A stretch of 35,399 bases of DNA from a virus. This document shows, in pieces, positions 18,971-26,234 of the stretch. How positions within the stretch are numbered: the first letter of the stretch is position 1; the number at the start of each line of letters is the position of its first letter. Under the pieces are notes generated by a model. The model did not search any database. It was not told the DNA's origin and saw only the letters and a list, made by a program, of their open reading frames with translations. The translations under genes and the position numbers were made by a program. The stretch lies in IMG/VR virus record IMGVR_UViG_3300017769_000046, positions 1 through 35,399 of that record, one strand, 5' to 3'.

Positions 18971-19004
18971 AAAGCCTGTTTGTTAACTCAAATGGGCTTT
19001 TTTT
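18971..19004 (+). terminator. rho-independent terminator
   Basis: aaagcctgtttg / caaatgggcttt forms a 12-bp stem (two G.U pairs) with loop ttaact, followed by a T run up to 19004. It abuts the stop (19003) of the convergent terminase nuclease ORF. Confidence 0.75.
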
Positions 19005-19788
19005 ATCTAAGTACGTACATTGGGGTGTTACTACCTTTTTCATTACGCCAAATCGCATAATCTGTTGCATCCGACATATGTCCCCTGTCACCATTGTCTA
19101 TTTTTAGCCCTTTATCGTTCACGATAGAGTACATATAGTCTTTTACAACGTATTCGCACCTCGTGTTGACTAATAAACGTCTTTCGCCATTGAGTCCAGC
19201 GTAAATTACGTTGTTCACCTTGTCCACACGCACCTTTCTTCGTGGATTTTGGATGTCCAACTCGTTTTTATACAAAATATCGTTTTGTTCAAACACCTCT
19301 CGCACATAATCCCAGTCATTTTTGCCTACACGACCATAATTACCACTTTTTTGGTTGGATGTGTTGTCTCCAGCTAATAAAACCTTTGAAATACCCCATT
19401 TATTCAGTAATTCTACCGCCTTCAAGGCTTGCTCAGTAGTCAATGCCTCTTTGGAGAAGATTTCATCGAAAATAATGTACTGCTTAAGACCATTACGAGC
19501 CTTTTTAACTTGGAGCAAAGCCCAACAATGAGGAGACCTGTTGAAATCAGCACAAAGCCAGACAGGACTACCGCTATCGTAGTCAAGAGCCGTAAGATTA
19601 CCATCAGGGTAGTGATTGTATCCATCAAAGTGTTTATAAGCCTTCTTCGTAGGGTCATCTGTTTCCTCACTCATTTCGTACCCAAGCTTATACGACAGAA
19701 AGTCCATCGCTTCCTCTTGGAGTAGCCGTTGTTTACTGTGATTGGTTTCCCACAAGGGAATGTCCCATGTCTTGTCGGGTTCTCTCAT
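19003..19788 (-). CDS. terL: terminase large subunit, C-terminal nuclease half (separate ORF)
   Basis: 261 aa with acidic-residue blocks typical of the RNase-H-like terminase nuclease: VWLCADFNRSPHCWALL, LLAGDNTSNQKS, HMSDATDYAIW. Its ATG overlaps the upstream stop (ATGA). Its frame is open for only 5 codons upstream. Confidence 0.75.
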   Translation of the reverse strand: MREPDKTWDIPLWETNHSKQRLLQEEAMDFLSYKLGYEMSEETDDPTKKAYKHFDGYNHYPDGNLTALDYDSGSPVWLCADFNRSPHCWALLQVKKARNGLKQYIIFDEIFSKEALTTEQALKAVELLNKWGISKVLLAGDNTSNQKSGNYGRVGKNDWDYVREVFEQNDILYKNELDIQNPRRKVRVDKVNNVIYAGLNGERRLLVNTRCEYVVKDYMYSIVNDKGLKIDNGDRGHMSDATDYAIWRNEKGSNTPMYVLR

Positions 19789-20132
19789 GTAAAAAGTATA
19801 GATTTAAAGGCACTTTCTGCGTCAACAAAAAAGATGGGGACACCCATTTCGGCACCCTCCTCTACTATAGATAATGCACCTGATCGGTGTTCGTGTAATG
19901 TTCTAAGGTCGTAAGTGAGTATGCCCCATCTGTTCTTTATGCAATCATCAAGTAAAGGGTTTAGCTTTTTAGAATAAGAACCAGTCTGAATTATTTCCCA
20001 ACACTGCTTTATTACTTTAGCATCAATCATTTCTATAAAGGAGTTTATATCGTCCTTCATAGTATCTACTTCAGACTGCTCAATATCTGTGCTAAATCTA
20101 GCGTATATGACTACTTTAGGTTGTTCCATCAT
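19785..20132 (-). CDS. serine-recombinase (resolvase) catalytic-domain-like protein without a DNA-binding domain
   Basis: 115 aa. VVIYARFSTDIEQ resembles the resolvase YARVST..Q active-site strand. ...TGSYSKKLNPLLDDC... and GILTYDLRTLHEHRSGALSIVEEGAEMGVPIFFVD parallel SG...RP.L..L and D.vlv..LDRL.R......l...gv.i by eye. Confidence 0.5.
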   Translation of the reverse strand: MMEQPKVVIYARFSTDIEQSEVDTMKDDINSFIEMIDAKVIKQCWEIIQTGSYSKKLNPLLDDCIKNRWGILTYDLRTLHEHRSGALSIVEEGAEMGVPIFFVDAESAFKSILFT

Positions 20133-20622
20133 ATTTTACCATGTTTCTAAGTTCTTTAGCTAGTACTCTTGGTATATCATACCATTCACCCTTATGATGA
20201 TTATTCTTTATTATTTTATGAATTTGTTTTTCATGCTTGTATATGTGGTTGCTTTTAACAGACCAAATTAATGTTATATCAAAAGGATTACCTGTCTTCA
20301 TTTTAGATATTCTTCTTTTCATAAGACCAGAAGTTACCCCAAACTTATAATAACCCTGACACTCTACGCAATACACGATTCCTTTTTTAACATCACAAAA
20401 TTCTTTAAAGTTTTCTAAATCCTCTTTGGTGATTATCTCACTCTTATTAGAAATCAATATCTCACAAGCCCTGATAAAATTTTTACGCCACCTTCTTTTA
20501 GTATTGCCATGCATATATTTTGTTATAGAATCATTTAAATCAATAAGATCATAACCCTTTGGTCTAAGATTTTTTATAAGACTAAGACATATGCCAACAT
20601 TAATAGATATATTTTTTTCCAT
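20116..20622 (-). CDS. T5orf172 / GIY-YIG-superfamily domain protein (free-standing homing-endonuclease-like)
   Basis: GIVYCVECQGYYKFGVTSGLMKRRISKMKTGNPFDITLIWSVKSNHIYKHEKQIHKIIKNNHHKGEWYDI matches the YKIG.T...  R...  tg.P......E..lH......GEWF pattern. It is markedly more AT-rich than the flanking terminase ORFs. Confidence 0.7.
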   Translation of the reverse strand: MEKNISINVGICLSLIKNLRPKGYDLIDLNDSITKYMHGNTKRRWRKNFIRACEILISNKSEIITKEDLENFKEFCDVKKGIVYCVECQGYYKFGVTSGLMKRRISKMKTGNPFDITLIWSVKSNHIYKHEKQIHKIIKNNHHKGEWYDIPRVLAKELRNMVKYDGTT

Positions 20623-20633
20623 TACAAACTAAA

Positions 20634-21437
20634 TTATTTCAAATTGTTCCATTCTTCTACTTTGTAGCCTGTTTTATCTTCCTTTACCGATATTTGCAGT
20701 ACGTTAAAGATGCCCGACTTCATTAGCCGACTATTAGCATCATTCGGATGATAGGGCGTACAAACGCTTAAAACAATACCTTTATCGTGAACACGCTTGA
20801 TCCATGTATTCGACACCTTGTTCCACACCGTTTCCCTGCGAGCCGTAGATATTCTATCTTCATCATTGCACACATCATCAAGGATCAAGACACCAGCTCG
20901 CTGTCCTGTGGTTTGGGTCAGTACTGCATATGCTTCATAGGTAGGGTTACCTGTTCGGTTACGGCTCTTCACAATGATGCGCTGCGTTGAGCCTGTATCT
21001 GTCCTATCAAATTCAACAGGGCTAAAGTTATGTTCCCTGCACCAGTATCGGTACATATCACTCATGAACAACGCACGTAGCGATAATATCCTCTTAGCAG
21101 AGATGCCCCCATCAGCCGACACAATCAACGTTTCTAGTTCGTGCTTTCGAGTGGTCATGTAGGCAGACAAACCAATAGGCACTTGTTGAGACTTACCAGT
21201 GTTATAAGGCGCCCTAATTAGACCATTCAGACGAGCACTTTTAGACAAGGCTTCTTGCTCCCAGTCATAAACCCCTTTCTGCATAGCGAGGTGTATTTGG
21301 GCTTGGGTCACTTTACGACCATCTTGATCGGCTAAACAGTTCTCAATAAATGAGTTCCTGAGGTCTAATGAGTCAGGGGGTGGATCATGTCCAACCACAT
21401 TAACCAATAAATCAGACCAATTAGCTTTTTGGGGCAT
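20634..21437 (-). CDS. terL: terminase large subunit, N-terminal ATPase half (separate ORF)
   Basis: 267 aa. Walker-A-like RAPYNTGKSQ, Walker-B-like GVLILDDV and a coupling-type motif SVCTPYHP. It ends with a stop 12 nt before the inserted ORF. Confidence 0.75.
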   Translation of the reverse strand: MPQKANWSDLLVNVVGHDPPPDSLDLRNSFIENCLADQDGRKVTQAQIHLAMQKGVYDWEQEALSKSARLNGLIRAPYNTGKSQQVPIGLSAYMTTRKHELETLIVSADGGISAKRILSLRALFMSDMYRYWCREHNFSPVEFDRTDTGSTQRIIVKSRNRTGNPTYEAYAVLTQTTGQRAGVLILDDVCNDEDRISTARRETVWNKVSNTWIKRVHDKGIVLSVCTPYHPNDANSRLMKSGIFNVLQISVKEDKTGYKVEEWNNLK

Positions 21438-21558
21438 ACGTTATCTTACAAAATTTACATTGCTTCTCACACTTCCTTTTACCAGAAATCACGCCCAAAC
21501 ACTTAAAAGGTTCTTTCTTTCTCCAAAGCCTAGCAAGGAAGTTCAGGTTAAACTTCAT
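21421..21558 (-). CDS. small Cys-rich ORF (45 aa), not in the track
   Basis: Hand translation: MKFNLNFLARLWRKKEPFKCLGVISGKRKCEKQCKFCKITYAPKS. It fills the 110-nt gap, with its ATG overlapping the upstream stop region and its stop overlapping the terL start. Confidence 0.35.
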   Translation of the reverse strand: MKFNLNFLARLWRKKEPFKCLGVISGKRKCEKQCKFCKITYAPKS

Positions 21559-22054
21559 AGGTATATGCCTTCTCCTTGAGCTCCATCAAGTCCTCCTTCG
21601 GTATATATACAAAGATATCCTTTCTATTGTTTCTACCCATTAGCGTATAAGCAATGGTACTGAAACCATATTTTTTATGGAGGCTATTGCCTCGTAACAC
21701 GCCTTTCTTATTGTTTATCTTGGGAATCATCTTTTTCTGTACGTATCCATACAGAGCCTTATTGTCCACGACCACAAACTCTCCATGAAACTGAAAGGCT
21801 ATTTTATCTGCACCATGGGGGCTACACCATCCAGACTTACCCTGAACGTTCCTAAACTCTATTAGGATATACCCCTTACTGTGGCACCCCTTAATGCCCT
21901 TGACATCATAGGTCACATCCCCAATACGAGCGTCAATGTGATTGTAGTCATCTTGCTTCGTGCCTTTTACGGCTCCTGTAATCTTGCAGAATAACTCTTC
22001 CGACTTCTGAGCCTCAGCGTACTGTCTTTTTTGTATTGCTTTAAATGAGTTCAT
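21548..22054 (-). CDS. PD-(D/E)XK-like nuclease-fold protein (putative)
   Basis: 168 aa. HIDARIGDVTYDVKGIKG...GYILIEF...GWC...ADKIAF has the shape of a D...(D/E)xK core. It lies between the small- and large-terminase genes. Confidence 0.4.
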   Translation of the reverse strand: MNSFKAIQKRQYAEAQKSEELFCKITGAVKGTKQDDYNHIDARIGDVTYDVKGIKGCHSKGYILIEFRNVQGKSGWCSPHGADKIAFQFHGEFVVVDNKALYGYVQKKMIPKINNKKGVLRGNSLHKKYGFSTIAYTLMGRNNRKDIFVYIPKEDLMELKEKAYTYEV

Positions 22055-22622: not shown

Positions 22623-22764
22623 CTACTGATTCTATGCGATTAAATATATAATTAGGCAACTTATCAGACATAGAGGGGATCTCATAAAGACTCATTATGA
22701 TAATCTTTATCTCCTCCGCTAACTCTTCCTTGGTTAATATGTTTTTCTTTTTATGCCAACCCAT
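22591..22764 (-). CDS. hypothetical protein, first gene of the late operon
   Basis: The track starts at a TTG (22773); the first ATG gives MGWHKKKNILTKEELAEEIK... Confidence 0.4.
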   Translation of the reverse strand: MGWHKKKNILTKEELAEEIKIIIMSLYEIPSMSDKLPNYIFNRIESVVEYVKKRGWK

Positions 22765-22922
22765 TTTACACAAACTTAATAAAATTGACAGACATTACTT
22801 ATAAATGGCGAGAATAGCAAATATTGACACTTTTTCATGGATTTTTGCTTTTCGCGAAAGGGAGGGTATTTAGCCCGTAGGCAAGTATATTTTAATATAT
22901 AAGCCCCTGTATAATATAATTT

Positions 22923-22965
22923 TCTAGTTCTATTATATAATATAAGAATCTAGTTTTATTATATA
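22923..22965. repeat. 17-bp direct repeat pair TCTAGTT(C/T)TATTATATA upstream of the late operon
   Basis: Copies at 22923-22939 and 22949-22965 with 1 mismatch, spaced 26 bp start to start, in the intergenic region. Confidence 0.7.
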
Positions 22966-22981
22966 GCTTTAAAGTATAGAC

Positions 22982-23015
22982 AAAAAAATAGCCCTGCATA
23001 TAATGCAAGGCTATA
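22982..23015 (-). terminator. rho-independent terminator closing the AT-rich cassette
   Basis: The minus strand reads ATAGCCTTGCAT-tat-ATGCAGGGCTAT (12-bp stem, one G.U pair) followed by TTTTTTT. Confidence 0.8.
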
Positions 23016-23043
23016 GGTTTAAAGTATATTTTAATTATATATT

Positions 23044-23337
23044 TTAATTGTCAAGTTTTACATAATCTGAAAGATCTAATCCAACATTATTTTGTTTTAT
23101 ATCCACACCTAAAAGTTGATTTATAGCTTCACTTATAAGAAAAAATTCGCGACTGTTAATCTTATTTTTAAGTTTATTATATGACATATTTTTTAAGTCA
23201 GATATACGATTTTCTGAAATACCTTTTTTATCTTTATCTATATTTTTACTTTTAGCAGATATAGATGTAGCTGTAATTAAACGTATATTAGTTTTTTCAC
23301 ATCTAAAATTGAGATAATATTCTATAAAATTTTTCAT
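23044..23337 (-). CDS. hypothetical protein, possible XRE-like HTH
   Basis: 97 aa, extremely AT-rich codons. GISENRISDLKN...LISEAINQLLGVD loosely resembles an XRE-type HTH. Confidence 0.45.
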   Translation of the reverse strand: MKNFIEYYLNFRCEKTNIRLITATSISAKSKNIDKDKKGISENRISDLKNMSYNKLKNKINSREFFLISEAINQLLGVDIKQNNVGLDLSDYVKLDN

Positions 23338-24068
23338 GCTGCTAACCTCATATTTTTAGATTTTAGTTTCTTAGCTTTTCTATAATCTTGGCTATATATT
23401 TTATATGGTATTTTATATAAATCTTTTTTAATAATTTTATAGGTATTATCATTTCTCATTACATTCCATAATGAAGCTTGAAATTCATAATAGTTTATAT
23501 CATATTTTTCAATAAAAGGTATAGCAATAATTTTCATAATGGTTTCTAAATCTTCATATACTCCTACATTATTTAATTTAGTTTTCCATATATCATTATT
23601 TTTAAATAAAGCTTTCATTATATGTGTATCTATAGTTATATAATTATTATCTAATAAAAGATTCCTATAAAAACTATATGTTTTTTTAGCTTTATTTCTA
23701 GCTAAGAATATATCTTTACCTTCAAATAATGGTAAAGCTTTTTTCCAATTATCACGTGATTGCCATTTTCTATGTTTATCTAAATCTATTTTTATACCTT
23801 TCTTTACAAGTTTAAGTATACGATAAACTTCATCTACATTTCTAGAGTATTTTGTATTGGATGAAAATACAGAAAACAATTGAGCTGTTTTATCAATATC
23901 TAAGAATTCGTATTCTTTATGTATATCTTTAATTAAATTATTATTATCAATATACCATTGTTTACCGTATTCAATATCTTCTATAGTTAGAAATCCTAAA
24001 GAATGTATAAGATTAGATTTAATTAGTTTTCTATGATTAGGTATAAAAGTTATATATAGTTTTTTCAT
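23334..24068 (-). CDS. hypothetical protein (largest gene of the AT-rich cassette)
   Basis: 244 aa, K/N/I/Y-rich. The blocks GKQWY, FSVFSSNTKYSRNV and KKTYSFYRNLLLDNNYITIDTH recall a conserved phage family of unknown function (WY...S(P/S)...W..N...K..sFY.N...(V/I)TID(R/T)H), from memory only. Confidence 0.55.
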   Translation of the reverse strand: MKKLYITFIPNHRKLIKSNLIHSLGFLTIEDIEYGKQWYIDNNNLIKDIHKEYEFLDIDKTAQLFSVFSSNTKYSRNVDEVYRILKLVKKGIKIDLDKHRKWQSRDNWKKALPLFEGKDIFLARNKAKKTYSFYRNLLLDNNYITIDTHIMKALFKNNDIWKTKLNNVGVYEDLETIMKIIAIPFIEKYDINYYEFQASLWNVMRNDNTYKIIKKDLYKIPYKIYSQDYRKAKKLKSKNMRLAA

Positions 24069-24087
24069 ATTATTGTATATTTTAAGT

Positions 24088-24306
24088 TTATATTTTATAA
24101 GTTAGTAGATATTTAGTATTATTTTCTAAATCGCTTTTCCTAATTATTTCATTTTTACCTATAAGGTAGTATCTATCAAAGTGTGAAATAATTGATTCAC
24201 GAACTGCTATATTATTAATATCATATTTTAAATCGAATGTATTAATAATAAAATCTATTTTAATTTTATCTGTATTTTCCATGTTATTATATATTTGAGT
24301 TTTCAT
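24088..24306 (-). CDS. hypothetical protein
   Basis: 72-aa ORF in the AT-rich cassette, overlapping the upstream ORF by 20 nt. Confidence 0.45.
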   Translation of the reverse strand: MKTQIYNNMENTDKIKIDFIINTFDLKYDINNIAVRESIISHFDRYYLIGKNEIIRKSDLENNTKYLLTYKI

Positions 24307-24535
24307 TAATTAGTTGATAGTATTTTTCATTCGTACTATCAATTATTTCTATACGGTTTAATCTAAACTTTCGTATAGCAAAATTTAGTTCATATAATTC
24401 ATTGCCACATATAGGACAACCTTCAATCCATTTTATATCCGAAAATATATTTTTTTCTGTATCTATCGATATAATATGTTCTTCATCCAAATCTATATTA
24501 CAACTTGGACAATAACTTTGTATTTCATTATACAT
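24287..24535 (-). CDS. zinc-ribbon protein (CxxC...CxxC)
   Basis: 82 aa with YCPSCNIDL ... GCPICGNELY. Confidence 0.5.
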   Translation of the reverse strand: MYNEIQSYCPSCNIDLDEEHIISIDTEKNIFSDIKWIEGCPICGNELYELNFAIRKFRLNRIEIIDSTNEKYYQLINENSNI

Positions 24536-24536
24536 A

Positions 24537-24644
24537 TTATTATCTATTTATAAGATGAATAAAAATATGCATTCCAAAGTATAGAAAGGTAAAACTCATA
24601 AATGTAATAAAACATATATGATATAATCGTTCGAATTTTTTCAT
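24537..24644 (-). CDS. small hydrophobic peptide (35 aa), not in the track
   Basis: Hand translation: MKKFERLYHICFITFMSFTFLYFGMHIFIHLINR. Its TAA lies 1 nt before the next ATG (TAATATG). The upstream 22 nt (ATAAACTAAAATATATAATAAC) closely resemble those before the 23334..24068 gene (TAAACTTAAAATATACAATAAT). Confidence 0.4.
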
Positions 24645-24893
24645 GTTATTATATATTTTAGTTTATATTTTAAGGCCTATTTTTTGCCTTGTTTTTCAGT
24701 ACTATAATATAACACTAATTAACTAAAATACAAAATACTAAATACAGTATTTTCAATAATATACACTAAAATGATTATTAATATACACCTTATATTATAC
24801 AAAAAAGCAACTAGCTATATTATATATTAAAATATATTTTTAAAGTATATAATTAGTAAAAATCCATTTTAAGGGTACGTAAAAATTTGGCAT

Positions 24894-24924
24894 AAAAAAA
24901 CCCTACACAACTCAATGTATAGGG
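24894..24924 (-). terminator. rho-independent terminator ending the leftward early operon
   Basis: The minus strand reads CCCTATACA-TTGAGT-TGTGTAGGG (9-bp stem, one G.U pair) followed by TTTTTTT. Confidence 0.8.
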
Positions 24925-24947
24925 CTTATAACTTTAACGGATAATTT

Positions 24948-25163
24948 TTATTTTGGTTCCTTATAAGGGTAATAGGCAACGTCATCACCGTTTGCTAGTC
25001 TTAGAATTGACTCATTAGACAAGGAAACTCTTATAGATTCAAAATTTATATGGCTAGTCAGTTCAATAAATATTTTACCGTCTTTATATATATATTCCAT
25101 TTCCAAAAAATTGAGTCTATTTATACATTTTTCTATGTCATTAATTGTTACTTTCTTATACAT
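24948..25163 (-). CDS. hypothetical protein
   Basis: 71-aa ORF, overlaps the upstream gene and is followed by a terminator. Confidence 0.5.
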   Translation of the reverse strand: MYKKVTINDIEKCINRLNFLEMEYIYKDGKIFIELTSHINFESIRVSLSNESILRLANGDDVAYYPYKEPK

Positions 25164-25439: not shown

Positions 25440-25715
25440 TTAACCTCTTACTGTGTATGTGTTGCCATTTGCTTTCACCTTGGTTAAGGAGTGTGCATTT
25501 ATTGTTCGATACTGTGCCTTATACATATCGAATGCTACTATATACCCATTCTCACTAGGGTTATACGACATGGAACCACCTCTTAAGTGTTTTTTAACAC
25601 CTAATCTAGCTACCATGTTTCTTTGTGTGCCATCCTTTTTTTTGAAGCTAACACTAAATATTGAGTTATTCTGACTTTGTAATAGGTTATATGCTTGTTG
25701 CTTATTGATTGTCAT
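25440..25715 (-). CDS. small beta-barrel protein (DUF2693/WYL_2-like, tentative)
   Basis: 91 aa. IFSVSFKKKDGTQRNMVARLGV... resembles the v.F.KKDG..R.m pattern of that family (from memory). Confidence 0.5.
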   Translation of the reverse strand: MTINKQQAYNLLQSQNNSIFSVSFKKKDGTQRNMVARLGVKKHLRGGSMSYNPSENGYIVAFDMYKAQYRTINAHSLTKVKANGNTYTVRG

Positions 25716-25805: not shown

Positions 25806-26234
25806 TTAATCCTCGTATTCTCTGTAGTCTATCAAACCACCTAATATAGGAGAAGAATCTTGTCGTGGTTTGTATGTATTGTTATTGTATTGTTGTGTGT
25901 TAAATTTCTTTACCACTTGAGGTAAAATTTCTTTACCATGGGGTAAAATTTCTTTACCCAACATTAGCTTAATTTTGGTGGTTCTGTTGTGTCGTTTTTT
26001 AGTAGAAATCAATCCAATTTTTTCTAGGTTCGATAATGATTTAATGATAGTTGGTTTGCTATAATTAGTCATCCCACAAATTTGAGAAACAGAAATTCTG
26101 TCCTCTGTCTTGTTCCAACCCCAAGTCTTTCTAATGATGGCTAATAGTACTAAAAATTCATTATGACTAAGTTCTTTCATGTACTTATCGAAAATTGAAT
26201 TTGGTATTGGTATAAATCCTTCTTGCTCAAGCAT
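25806..26234 (-). CDS. replication initiator, phage lambda O-like N-terminal (wHTH) domain protein
   Basis: FIPIPNSIFDKYMKELSHNEFLVLLAIIRKTWGWNKTEDRISVSQICGMTNYSKPTIIKSLSNLEKIGLI matches the Phage_rep_O pattern (...RkTyGwnK..d.IS.sQ...TG.s...v..al..L). Only 142 aa. Confidence 0.75.
   Translation of the reverse strand: MLEQEGFIPIPNSIFDKYMKELSHNEFLVLLAIIRKTWGWNKTEDRISVSQICGMTNYSKPTIIKSLSNLEKIGLISTKKRHNRTTKIKLMLGKEILPHGKEILPQVVKKFNTQQYNNNTYKPRQDSSPILGGLIDYREYED
25899..25958. repeat. iterons inside the O-like gene: 2 perfect and 1 imperfect copy of GGTAAAATTTCTTTACC (candidate origin)
   Basis: Perfect copies at 25921-25937 and 25942-25958 (21-bp period) and an imperfect copy, gtTAAATTTCTTTACC, ending at 25914. 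Each unit has inverted arms GGTAAA/TTTACC. They encode GKEILPHGKEILP. Confidence 0.7.

What the first reader, a model, noticed from the sequence alone, without database searches (positions are those of the whole stretch)
22982..24924. Strongly AT-rich five-gene cassette insulated by two strong terminators between the early and late operons
Genes 24537..24644, 24287..24535, 24088..24306, 23334..24068 and 23044..23337 have K/N/I/Y-dominated products. A sample line has 15/60 G+C, against 26/60 in the capsid gene.

The cassette starts after the terminator at 24894-24924 and ends with the terminator at 22982-23015. It therefore needs its own promoter in 24645-24893, which is a moron-like architecture. 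Two of its genes share a near-identical 22-nt translation-initiation region.

Contents: a small hydrophobic peptide, a CxxC...CxxC zinc ribbon, a 244-aa protein with WY / S..(K)Y.RN / K..SFYRN / ITIDTH blocks, and a possible XRE-like HTH. None has an obvious role in virion, replication or lysis. An autonomous, horizontally acquired accessory unit like this is the kind of place where superinfection-exclusion, defence or anti-defence functions are found.
Basis: partly seen in the sequence, partly recalled or inferred. Interest (0 to 1): 0.65.

Follow-up and report, generated by a model that had tools for sequence, protein, structure and literature searches.

The report
Swappable AT-rich phage cassette, glycosylase-like core
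The AT-rich block is real: it is a gene unit with a terminator at each end, which related marine phages exchange by recombination, and its main protein (DUF7178, function unknown) looks like a distant relative of DNA-repair glycosylases; this is moderately interesting, not extraordinary.

Summary
Window 22982-24924 has 21.0% G+C against 38.6% elsewhere (z = -10). It carries five minus-strand genes with GC3 of 0.09-0.17 and is bracketed by two 12-bp, U7-tailed terminators. Four genes, not two, share the start-region motif AAATATAYAATAAYATG. Gene 3 most likely starts at 24282.

Relatives found through the small terminase show a homologous two-terminator unit in the same slot in about three quarters of genomes. 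Its allele lineages range from 21% to 48% G+C. The unit's history disagrees with its neighbours: terS 99% identical with DUF7178 28% identical, and the reverse. It is therefore exchanged horizontally as a block, but it is not a recent foreign add-on.

The core protein (244 aa, Pfam DUF7178) is a remote homologue of Ogg2-type HhH-GPD DNA glycosylase/AP lyases. Its invariant K129 and D147 align with their catalytic Lys and Asp, 18 residues apart. Fold comparison with solved structures was inconclusive. DUF7178 also occurs as a domain of giant phage polyvalent proteins. Its partners are a 34-aa membrane peptide, a zinc ribbon and a weak XRE-like HTH protein.

No known defence family matched, and no lysogeny genes were found. 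The substrate, biological role, promoter and host remain unknown.

The parts
24852..24953 (-). Left boundary element. It holds terminator 1 (stem-loop 24898-24927 plus a U7 tract) and about 45 nt downstream, including an ATTTTTACGTA box at 24876-24886.
   Evidence: Terminator scan. Folding energy -16.5 kcal/mol, z = -4.8. The block w24953-24852 is 90-96% identical in L001, L002, L070 and L011, although the genes upstream of it differ and L011 carries a different cassette downstream. The same hairpin precedes the L058 and L069 cassettes.
24645..24851 (-). Conserved non-coding leader, the presumed promoter region of the cassette. It contains TATATAATATAGCTAG at 24811-24826.
   Evidence: It aligns with L001, L002 and L070 at about coding-level identity. 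The motif TATATAATANANCTAG occurs 3 times in the window against 0.04 expected. There is no Rfam hit and no unusual RNA folding, z = -1.36. Promoter function is inferred, not shown.
24540..24644 (-). 34-aa single-pass membrane peptide, MKKFERLYHICFITFMSFTFLYFGMHIFIHLINR, with a YFGxHxxIHxI motif.
   Evidence: ORF. The family was found in 11 cassette variants, including normal-GC ones, and a similar 31-34-aa family occurs in 5 more. Kyte-Doolittle 19-residue maximum is 1.75. No profile hits.
24287..24535 (-). 82-aa CxxC...CxxC zinc-ribbon protein.
   Evidence: Only sub-threshold zinc-ribbon Pfam hits. Orthologues with the cysteines kept occur in L001, L002 and L070. In other alleles a CxxC...CxxC ribbon is fused to the C-terminus of the HTH protein.
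24088..24282 (-). 64-aa protein with no family hits. The start is revised from 24306 to 24282.
   Evidence: The start motif lies at 24280-24297. The only orthologue is in L001, 56% identical and 64 aa. It is absent from L002, L070 and L007.
23334..24068 (-). 244-aa DUF7178 protein, a putative HhH-GPD/Ogg2-like DNA glycosylase/AP lyase with K129 and D147.
   Evidence: Pfam PF23802, 1.1e-17, and phrog_3842, 2.7e-18. Family profile against PDB Ogg2 enzymes 3fhf/3knt, E = 3.9e-6. hhalign against an Ogg-HhH alignment gives probability 96% and E = 4e-9, with K129 and D147 on the catalytic Lys and Asp. S69, K129, F133 and D147 are invariant in 142 representatives and in all 32 alleles of this phage group. 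AF2 model pLDDT 91.9, all-alpha.
23044..23337 (-). 97-aa protein of the small HTH family called F2 here. Its start overlaps the DUF7178 stop codon.
   Evidence: The family follows DUF7178 directly in most variants. 6 of 15 members give weak HTH_3 hits and 4 of 15 give weak HTH_26 hits, with best E-values of 0.001-0.002, all below Pfam cut-offs. The window's own member has no hit. F2-like ORFs are also present in 8 of 10 relatives that lack DUF7178. The single-sequence AF2 model is unusable, pLDDT 41.
22978..23014 (-). Terminator 2, at the end of the cassette.
   Evidence: Folding energy -16.7 kcal/mol, z = -4.2. It is identical in L001, L002 and L070. Other cassette lineages carry a different terminator at the same place.
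22910..22966 (-). Two 26-nt tandem repeats, each carrying TATATAATANANCTAG. This is the right-hand limit of the exchanged segment.
   Evidence: Repeats. Motif. Homology with L010, L011 and L057/58, which carry other cassettes or none sequenced, resumes at w22965-22966.
24066..24083 (-). Copy of the start-region motif AAAATATAYAATAAYATG. Other copies are at 24280-24297, 24533-24550 and 24642-24659.
   Evidence: The motif is confined to the low-GC cassette lineages (L001, L002, L070, L007, weaker in L077, L011 and L069). It is absent from the normal-GC cassettes and, apart from one minus-strand near-match in L044 and one elsewhere in the window, from the rest of the sequences scanned.

Best explanation
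Shown:
- The segment is a transcription unit with a terminator at each end: terminator 1, conserved leader, five genes, terminator 2.
- It sits at the junction between the replication (early) operon and the packaging (late) operon of a marine tailed phage of about 35 kb with no cultured relative in the collections searched.
- The same kind of unit occupies this slot in about three quarters of related genomes.
- Its recurrent genes are a DUF7178 protein, a small HTH-like protein that usually follows it directly, and often a 31-38-aa membrane peptide.
- The unit is exchanged between phage backbones as a block, between conserved flanks.
- It exists as deep allele lineages of very different base composition. 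The window carries one of the AT-rich lineages, which also has its own start-region motif on four genes.

Inferred:
- DUF7178 is an enzyme of the HhH-GPD superfamily, closest to archaeal-type Ogg2 8-oxoguanine glycosylase/AP lyases.
- It would flip a damaged or modified base out of DNA, use K129 as the Schiff-base nucleophile and D147 as the activating acid/base, and nick the resulting abasic site.
- It most likely acts on DNA during infection, from its own promoter.

Not known: the substrate, and whether the purpose is repair of the phage genome, removal of marks placed by the host on phage DNA, or an attack on host or rival DNA. The slot is variable and the domain recurs in phage polyvalent proteins, which an earlier study interprets as deployed in phage-host conflict (PMC5512222). 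That makes a conflict role somewhat more likely than housekeeping repair.
For: Architecture and composition.

Same unit in relatives:
- DUF7178 lies upstream of terS in about 27 of 36 loci with at least 3 kb of upstream sequence.
- Terminators flank the unit in most variants, low-GC and normal-GC alike.
- Family clustering of the slot's ORFs finds DUF7178 in 24 of 24 loci chosen for carrying it and the HTH family in 20 of those 24.

Block exchange:
- Identity of terS and of DUF7178 do not track each other.
- Breakpoints fall at w24953-24852 and at about w22966.
- Low-GC alleles form deep clades in a neighbour-joining tree.
- L077 has a 36%-identical allele that is also in a low-GC dip.
- The same slot holds GC-rich genes, up to 0.63, in other relatives.

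Enzyme assignment:
- Profile against PDB Ogg2 enzymes, E = 3.9e-6 (1.5e-5 with a smaller profile).
- hhalign probability 96%, with the K and D aligned.
- K-to-D spacing is 18 residues.
- K129 and D147 are invariant.
- HhH-GPD enzymes (EndoIII, AGOG) are the only PDB entries in the listed Foldseek matches with TM-score above 0.3.

Conflict context:
- DUF7178 occurs inside proteins of 1.2-3.1 thousand residues, one of which carries LPD38.
- BFVD structural matches include ART-PolyVal proteins, at lower significance.
Against: - Foldseek against the PDB found no significant match. The best E-value was 0.16, and TM-scores to EndoIII and AGOG were only 0.34-0.36.
- The canonical hairpin of the HhH motif (hPGhG) is absent. 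An 11-residue loop replaces it (sequence; AF2 secondary structure).
- Only 1 of 50 family members touches Pfam Ogg-HhH, at E = 0.065.
- The homology covers only the C-terminal roughly 75-90 residues.
- No promoter is demonstrated.
- There is no PADLOC hit, and no anti-defence library was available.
- Nine relatives lack DUF7178 and two seem to carry broken copies, so it is dispensable.
- In unrelated phages its neighbours are not conserved, so the five genes need not act together.
Confidence: 0.6

Rival explanations
1. Classic moron. This would be a recently acquired foreign unit, expressed on its own, that gives superinfection exclusion, defence or anti-defence. The membrane peptide would be the exclusion factor.
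For: The unit has its own terminators, aberrant composition and a private start-region motif. It has been transferred horizontally. A small membrane peptide is conserved with it. The unit is missing in 9 of about 36 relatives.
Against: Homologous units fill the same slot in most relatives, half of them at normal G+C. The low-GC state is ancient, not recent. No integrase or repressor was found among the proteins scanned, so prophage expression has no support. No PADLOC family matched.
Confidence: 0.2
2. Regulatory module of the phage. The HTH protein, with the zinc ribbon, would control the switch to late transcription from its position just upstream of the late operon. DUF7178 would be a passenger.
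For: The HTH gene is the last gene before the late control region. F2-like HTH ORFs occur in 45 loci, including 8 of 10 relatives without DUF7178. In some alleles the HTH is fused to a zinc ribbon. The motif TATATAATANANCTAG occurs once in the cassette leader and twice in front of the late operon.
Against: HTH hits are sub-threshold and the window's member has none. The L011, L058 and L069 cassettes have DUF7178 but no F2. There is no similarity to known late activators or antiterminators. The motif is rare outside close relatives.
Confidence: 0.12
3. The low G+C is local decay, not foreign origin. Weakly selected accessory genes would drift to the AT-rich mutational equilibrium, and DUF7178 would be a non-catalytic DNA-binding protein.
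For: Other small early genes and the endonuclease-like ORF are also AT-richer than the late genes, at 0.27-0.32. The fold match to glycosylases is weak.
Against: Sister alleles in the same slot sit at 0.37-0.48 and neighbouring genes reach 0.63, which decay cannot produce. The gene histories are incongruent. The putative active-site residues are invariant across alleles only 22-30% identical, which argues for strong purifying selection on an enzyme.
Confidence: 0.08

Closest known systems
Ogg2-type 8-oxoguanine DNA glycosylase/AP lyases of the HhH-GPD superfamily (PDB 3FHF/3KNT, 9O00, 3FHG; Pfam Ogg-HhH PF22175)
   Same: Significant profile-to-sequence and profile-to-profile similarity over the catalytic segment. 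The invariant Lys and Asp align with the catalytic pair, with the same 18-residue spacing. Both share the FxRN and IDxH motifs and the C-terminal Trp. Both are all-alpha, and there are no Fe-S cysteines.
   Different: It is a separate Pfam family (DUF7178) and does not reach the Ogg-HhH threshold. There is no GxG hairpin. The N-terminal half has its own conserved WY, SP..W.RN and K..KA motifs. The global fold match is below significance. It is phage-borne and of unknown substrate.
Morons of temperate phages (Hendrix-type: promoter, gene and terminator inserted between neighbouring genes, with deviant composition)
   Same: A terminator-bounded unit with deviant composition, lying between two functional modules and horizontally mobile.
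   Different: It carries a terminator at its upstream end as well. Homologous units fill the slot in most relatives rather than being simply present or absent. No lysogeny module was detected. The deviant composition is old and inherited with the allele lineage.
Effector domains of phage polyvalent proteins (Iyer et al. 2017, PMC5512222)
   Same: The DUF7178 domain occurs inside proteins of 1.2-3.1 thousand residues. [quoted passage not shown] BFVD structural matches include ART-PolyVal proteins, though at lower significance.
   Different: Here it is a solo 244-aa protein expressed from the genome. The paper's main text does not mention glycosylases or lyases, and mentions HhH only in another context.
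Glycosylases in phage-host conflict and phage repair: Brig1/Brig3 defence glycosylases (PMC13160076) and T4 endonuclease V
   Same: Base excision on DNA used in a phage-host context. T4 endonuclease V is a phage-encoded glycosylase/AP lyase (from general knowledge).
   Different: Brig enzymes are host-encoded and belong to the uracil-DNA-glycosylase superfamily. T4 endonuclease V has another fold. No sequence relationship to either was found.

Membership tests
Pfam DUF7178 (PF23802) / phrog_3842 | Score above the curated Pfam gathering threshold over most of the model | tested here: met
   65 bits against a cut-off of 27. Residues 24-206 cover model positions 23-191 of 193. phrog_3842 matches at 2.7e-18.
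HhH-GPD superfamily of DNA glycosylases | Catalytic Asp about 18-20 residues after the HhH lysine position, at the start of a helix | tested here: met
   K129 and D147 are 18 residues apart. Both are invariant in 142 representatives and in 32 local alleles. They align with the Ogg2 Lys and Asp. In the AF2 model D147 immediately precedes helix 148-154.
HhH-GPD superfamily of DNA glycosylases | Canonical helix-hairpin-helix with a hydrophobic-Pro-Gly-hydrophobic-Gly type hairpin, and a Gly/Pro-rich loop before the Asp | tested here: not met
   Helix 105-116 and helix 128-137 are joined by an 11-residue loop (DIFLARNKAKK) with no GxG. The loop before D147 is LDNNYITI, with no Gly or Pro (sequence).
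HhH-GPD superfamily of DNA glycosylases | Two-lobed all-alpha fold that superposes on solved members | tested here: inconclusive
   The model is all-alpha with pLDDT 91.9. EndoIII (8a5c, 2abk) and AGOG (7ou3) are the only PDB entries among the listed matches with TM-score above 0.3. However, TM is only 0.34-0.36 and E is 0.8 or worse.
HhH-GPD superfamily of DNA glycosylases | Statistically significant sequence or profile similarity to members | tested here: met
   hmmsearch of the family profile against the PDB gives 3fhf at E = 3.9e-6, 3knt at 4.1e-6 and 9o00 at 1.8e-4. hhalign against the Ogg-HhH alignment gives probability 96% and E = 4.3e-9 over 73 columns.
Ogg2 family proper (Pfam Ogg-HhH PF22175) | Match to the family model above threshold | tested here: not met
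   The window protein has no hit. Only 1 of 50 DUF7178 members reaches E = 0.065. I therefore file it as a separate family of the superfamily, not as an Ogg2.
HhH-GPD superfamily of DNA glycosylases | Base-excision or AP-lyase activity | not testable with these tools
   This needs enzyme assays.
Moron | Own terminator and deviant base composition | tested here: met
Moron | Own promoter, with expression independent of the flanking operons (typically from the prophage) | not testable with these tools
   The leader is conserved, but promoter-like hits are no more frequent than chance. No integrase or repressor was found among the proteins scanned.
Moron | Clean presence or absence between genes that are adjacent in related phages | tested here: not met
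   The slot is always filled. About 27 of 36 relatives have a homologous DUF7178 unit, and the rest have other small genes.
Known anti-phage defence systems (PADLOC-DB) | A profile match for any cassette protein | tested here: not met
   No family matched any of the 8 proteins at E up to 1.
XRE/Cro-type HTH (for the 97-aa protein) | Match to an HTH_3 or HTH_26-type model | tested here: inconclusive
   The window member has no hit. 6 of 15 family members give weak HTH_3 hits and 4 of 15 give weak HTH_26 hits (best E 0.001-0.002), all below Pfam cut-offs. The AF2 single-sequence model is unusable.

The most novel reading that the evidence does not exclude
DUF7178 would be a previously unrecognised family of phage DNA glycosylase/AP lyases used in conflict rather than in housekeeping repair. 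It might excise bases that host defences have marked on the incoming genome, or it might attack modified DNA of the host or of rival phages. Phages would deploy it either as a solo gene in a swappable unit with a terminator at each end, or as a domain of polyvalent proteins. The persistence of very AT-rich and of GC-normal allele lineages in one slot would then reflect continuing exchange of these units across phages of hosts with different G+C.
Probability: 0.18. Interest if true: 0.75.

Novelty: new variant of a known kind. Interest (0 to 1): 0.45.

Why it matters
DUF7178 has no assigned function. A full-text search of about 8.3 million papers found no mention of it. Yet an exhaustive profile search found 244 cluster representatives (clusters at 50% identity), mostly from marine metagenomes. 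It also recurs inside giant phage polyvalent proteins.

Linking it to the HhH-GPD/Ogg2 catalytic core gives a concrete, cheap test: glycosylase and lyase assays, with K129 and D147 mutants. It would also add an HhH-GPD-type enzyme to the list of phage-encoded glycosylases.

The locus is also a clean natural example of modular exchange. The unit has a terminator at each end, identifiable junctions, and allele lineages that keep G+C as low as 21% inside backbones of about 40%. That poses a real question about how composition is maintained in phage genomes.

If the enzyme turns out to be an ordinary repair activity, the finding is a useful annotation and little more.

Tried and rejected
Searches that found nothing:
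- Near and distant DNA searches of the cassette and its surroundings against 50,697 phage records found no match.
- tblastn of the capsid protein against the same collection found no match.
- The capsid protein against 185,579 species genomes found no relative, so the host could not be named.
- One metagenome scan found nothing and the other found only three short contigs.
- The viral-contig scan with the close alignment found only the contig already held.

RNA readings, rejected:
- No Rfam family and no tRNA in the window.
- The leader does not fold unusually, z = -1.36.
- The conserved element upstream of the late operon has no consensus RNA structure.

Promoter:
- Sigma-70-like hits do not exceed shuffles.
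- The ATTTYTACSTA box is not enriched in the window, 9 against 5.7 expected. I kept it only as a lead.

Shine-Dalgarno usage as a host clue: most genes have A-rich, SD-less leaders but several have a strong GGAGG. This is too mixed to name a phylum.

Defence: PADLOC found nothing, and NCBIfam gave nothing meaningful.

Structure:
- Foldseek against the PDB was not significant.
- The alignment of the 97-aa protein family was not accepted for structure prediction.
- The single-sequence model of that protein is useless, pLDDT 41, so I ran no fold search on it.

Other rejected ideas:
- A lytic-transglycosylase reading of DUF7178. There is no invariant Glu, and only chance-level hits.
- A fixed functional partnership of DUF7178 with a zinc ribbon or a membrane peptide outside this phage group. 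It was seen in L008 and partly in L079, but not in L078 or L080.
- PHROGs on the giant DUF7178-containing proteins added no function.
Full report
**1. The observation**

The window is a phage genome segment of about 35.4 kb. Minus-strand late genes run from about 22.8 kb down to the left end: terS, a split terL, portal, major head protein, tail genes and a giant fibre-like ORF. A minus-strand early operon begins with a RepO-like gene at 26234. A divergent plus-strand operon carries an exonuclease, ERF, a DnaB-like helicase, an M15 peptidase and a DnaA_C protein.

Between the two minus-strand operons lies the reported block. Its G+C is 0.204-0.224 in four consecutive 500-nt windows. Over 22982-24924 it is 0.210, against a mean of 0.386 (sd 0.017) for other 1.9-kb windows, so z = -10.3. 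GC3 of the five genes is 0.09-0.17, against 0.22-0.49 for all others. Half of the cassette's residues are F, Y, M, I, N or K, against 28% in the late proteins.

Both terminators are real. Each has a 12-bp stem followed by seven U. Folding energies are -16.5 and -16.7 kcal/mol, better than all 200 shuffles.

The shared start region is more extensive than reported. AAAATATAYAATAAYATG, or a close variant, precedes four start codons: 24644, 24535, 24282 and 24068. This moves the start of gene 3 to 24282, giving 64 aa, the same length as its orthologue in L001.

The inferred promoter in 24645-24893 cannot be confirmed. Consensus promoter hits are no more frequent than in shuffled sequence.

**2. 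The proteins**

- The 244-aa protein belongs to Pfam DUF7178 (65 bits against a cut-off of 27) and to phrog_3842.
- The 82-aa protein has two CxxC pairs and only sub-threshold zinc-ribbon hits.
- The 34-aa product is a single-pass membrane peptide.
- The 64-aa and 97-aa proteins have no hits.
- No cassette protein matches PADLOC.

**3. Relatives: a conserved, exchangeable slot**

No cultured phage resembles this genome. Metagenomic contigs do. L001 carries the same cassette between the same two terminators, also at 15-24% G+C. Tara Oceans contigs L002-L006 carry it too.

A search with terS fetched 67 IMG/VR loci. An HMM scan of their ORFs finds a DUF7178 gene upstream of terS in about 27 of 36 loci that have at least 3 kb of upstream sequence. 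G+C of that gene runs from 0.21 to 0.48.

In most variants, whether AT-rich or not, the unit sits between a strong terminator upstream and another about 250-550 nt before the late operon. The two-terminator design is therefore a property of the phage group, not of this allele.

Clustering of the slot's ORFs shows three recurrent components:
- DUF7178, in all 24 loci compared. These loci were chosen because they carry it.
- A small HTH-like family, in 20 of those 24, usually directly downstream.
- A 31-38-aa membrane peptide with a conserved (Y)FGxHxxIHxI-type motif, in 16.

The zinc ribbon is restricted to this allele lineage as a separate gene. In other alleles a CxxC...CxxC ribbon is fused to the HTH protein.

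Nine relatives lack DUF7178 and fill the slot with other small genes. Two appear to carry broken copies.

**4. Horizontal exchange**

The histories of neighbouring genes disagree:

| Locus | terS identity to window | DUF7178 identity to window |
|---|---|---|
| L011 | 99% | 28% |
| L002 | 71% | 90% |
| L070 | 62% | 59% (other cassette genes 75-79%) |

DNA comparison places the junctions at two points. One is the terminator-1 element, w24953-24852. It is conserved in L001, L002, L070 and L011, whatever lies upstream of it. The other is about w22966, just past terminator 2, where homology with L010, L011 and L057/58 resumes.

So the mobile unit brings its own upstream terminator, leader, genes and downstream terminator.

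In a neighbour-joining tree, the AT-rich alleles (21-29% G+C) form deep clades, and the GC-normal alleles form others. L077 carries an allele only 36% identical to the window's, and it too sits in a low-GC dip. In other relatives the same slot holds genes with up to 63% G+C.

The composition therefore travels with the allele lineage and is old. That fits repeated exchange with a compositionally diverse phage pool better than recent acquisition or local decay. Why the AT-rich lineages do not drift toward backbone composition remains unexplained.

The start-region motif is confined to the AT-rich lineages.

**5. What DUF7178 is**

An exhaustive profile search found 244 cluster representatives (E up to 0.001), mostly about 190-210 aa. 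A word-indexed search found 258 more proteins. None carries a functional name, and many come from marine samples.

Across 142 diverse representatives, S69, K129, F133 and D147 are invariant, and W38, Y39, N77, N136, T145, Y171, Q197, A198 and W201 nearly so. In all 32 distinct alleles of this phage group, W38, Y39, S69, N77, K129, F133, N136, T145, D147, Y171, Q197 and W201 are unchanged, and A198 is kept in 29, despite 22-30% overall identity.

The family profile hits solved Ogg2-type 8-oxoguanine glycosylase/AP lyases:
- 3fhf at E = 3.9e-6, 3knt at 4.1e-6, 9o00 at 1.8e-4, and further Ogg enzymes below them.
- A profile-profile comparison with an alignment of Ogg-HhH proteins gives 96% probability and E = 4e-9 over 73 columns.
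- In these alignments K129 falls on the Schiff-base lysine (GxKEASHFLRN) and D147 on the catalytic aspartate (IIDRH). The spacing is the same, 18 residues.

The AF2 model is confident (pLDDT 91.9) and all-alpha, with D147 immediately preceding a helix.

Against this:
- Foldseek finds no significant PDB match. EndoIII and AGOG are the only listed entries above TM 0.3, and they reach only 0.34-0.36.
- The canonical GxG hairpin is missing.
- The proteins do not reach the Pfam Ogg-HhH threshold.

I therefore file DUF7178 as a distinct, divergent family of the HhH-GPD superfamily, with about 65-70% confidence. I do not file it as an Ogg2.

**6. Context of the family**

DUF7178 occurs as a domain in proteins of 1,188-3,062 aa. 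[quoted passage not shown]

Structural matches in BFVD include solo proteins of a Synechococcus, a Salinibacter and a Streptomyces phage, and many multidomain proteins of 700-1,500 aa. Among the significant matches one is named ART-PolyVal-like. Other ART-PolyVal, acetyltransferase, minor-capsid and head-morphogenesis (MuF) entries score at or below chance level.

In unrelated marine phages the solo gene sits among small early genes near recombination and replication genes, without conserved neighbours.

No paper in the library mentions DUF7178. [quoted passage not shown]

**7. How it most likely works**

Shown: the architecture, the composition, the conservation of the slot, the block exchange, and the remote homology with conserved catalytic residues.

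Inferred:
- The unit is transcribed from its own promoter in the conserved leader. The motif TATATAATANANCTAG occurs once there and twice ahead of the late operon, 3 matches against 0.04 expected. That hints at shared control.
- DUF7178 excises a base and nicks the abasic site through K129 and D147.
- It acts on DNA during infection.

The purpose is open. I rate a conflict role at about 0.35, covering counter-defence or action on host or rival DNA. I rate repair of virion-borne damage at about 0.25. The rest is unknown.

The HTH protein may regulate the unit or the late switch. F2-like ORFs occur even in relatives without DUF7178, so the two are not strictly tied.

No integrase or repressor was found among the proteins scanned. 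Prophage-style moron expression is therefore unsupported.

**8. Verdict**

The unit is accessory, terminator-bounded and horizontally exchanged. But it is one allele of a long-standing, positionally conserved module, and its main gene has an identifiable enzymatic ancestry.

It is a new variant of known kinds: a moron-like mosaic module and an HhH-GPD enzyme. It is of moderate interest, mainly because it gives a widespread phage DUF a testable function and poses a clear question about how base composition is maintained.

Noticed in passing
window 19003-21437 (- strand): The large terminase gene appears split. The N-terminal part is at 20634-21437 and the C-terminal part at 19003-19788. Between them lie an AT-rich (0.29) 168-aa endonuclease-like ORF (20116-20622) and a 115-aa ORF (19785-20132). 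This looks like an intron or homing-endonuclease insertion.
   Followed up: partly
window 21548-22054 (- strand): A 168-aa ORF lies between terS and terL and has no family hit. It is present in only some relatives (51-93% identity) and absent from many that have terS 90% identical. It is another variable insertion.
   Followed up: partly
window about 22764-22925 (- strand); same position in L002-L072: A DNA element of about 160 nt lies upstream of the 57-aa gene and terS and is conserved in all 25 diverse relatives aligned. Its pattern is AGGGG..TTAAA..ACCCTCCCTTYCGCAAAA..TGTCAAT, with TGTCAAT occurring twice. In some relatives ATTTCTACGTA boxes are repeated within it. It has no consensus RNA structure. 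It is a candidate late promoter, operator or packaging site.
   Followed up: partly
window 1 to about 5850 (- strand): An open reading frame of at least 1,950 codons runs off the left end. Its N-terminus (MATEVKRRRGTTTQHSTFTGAEGE...) looks like a tail fibre to me, but I did not search it. The ORF listing does not report it because it reaches the window edge.
   Followed up: partly
L002 863-1168 and L070 5571-5894; window 24855-24889: L002 and L070 have an extra 61-aa gene in the cassette leader, flanked by two copies of AAATTTTTACGTACCCTTAAAATGGATTTTTACT. The window and L001 have one copy and no gene. This suggests gain or loss by recombination between the repeats.
   Followed up: partly
L029, L052, L053, L072 (1-2 kb upstream of terS): In these relatives the same slot holds a second terminator-bounded unit whose genes are GC-rich (0.45-0.63), well above the backbone of about 0.40-0.44. 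The slot therefore deviates in composition in both directions.
   Followed up: partly
L014 739-1333; L020 5569-6162: DUF7178 is split into two ORFs in these contigs. They may be pseudogenes or assembly errors.
   Followed up: no
window 22883-22896 and 23022-23035: An exact 14-nt direct repeat, AAGTATATTTTAAT, flanks terminator 2 and the 26-nt repeats. One copy lies in the conserved backbone element and one at the cassette's 3' end. It is also a 20-nt, 95% inverted match to 24820-24839 in the leader. It could be crossover microhomology, or chance in AT-rich DNA.
   Followed up: no
window 25806-26234 and 25440-25715 (- strand): The RepO-like protein is only 142 aa, matching just the N-terminal winged-helix part of the PHROG O-like replication-initiator models of 232-346 positions. 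It is followed by a WYL_2 (Sm-like SH3) protein. The same pair is found in L001, L058, L069, L070 and L077.
   Followed up: no
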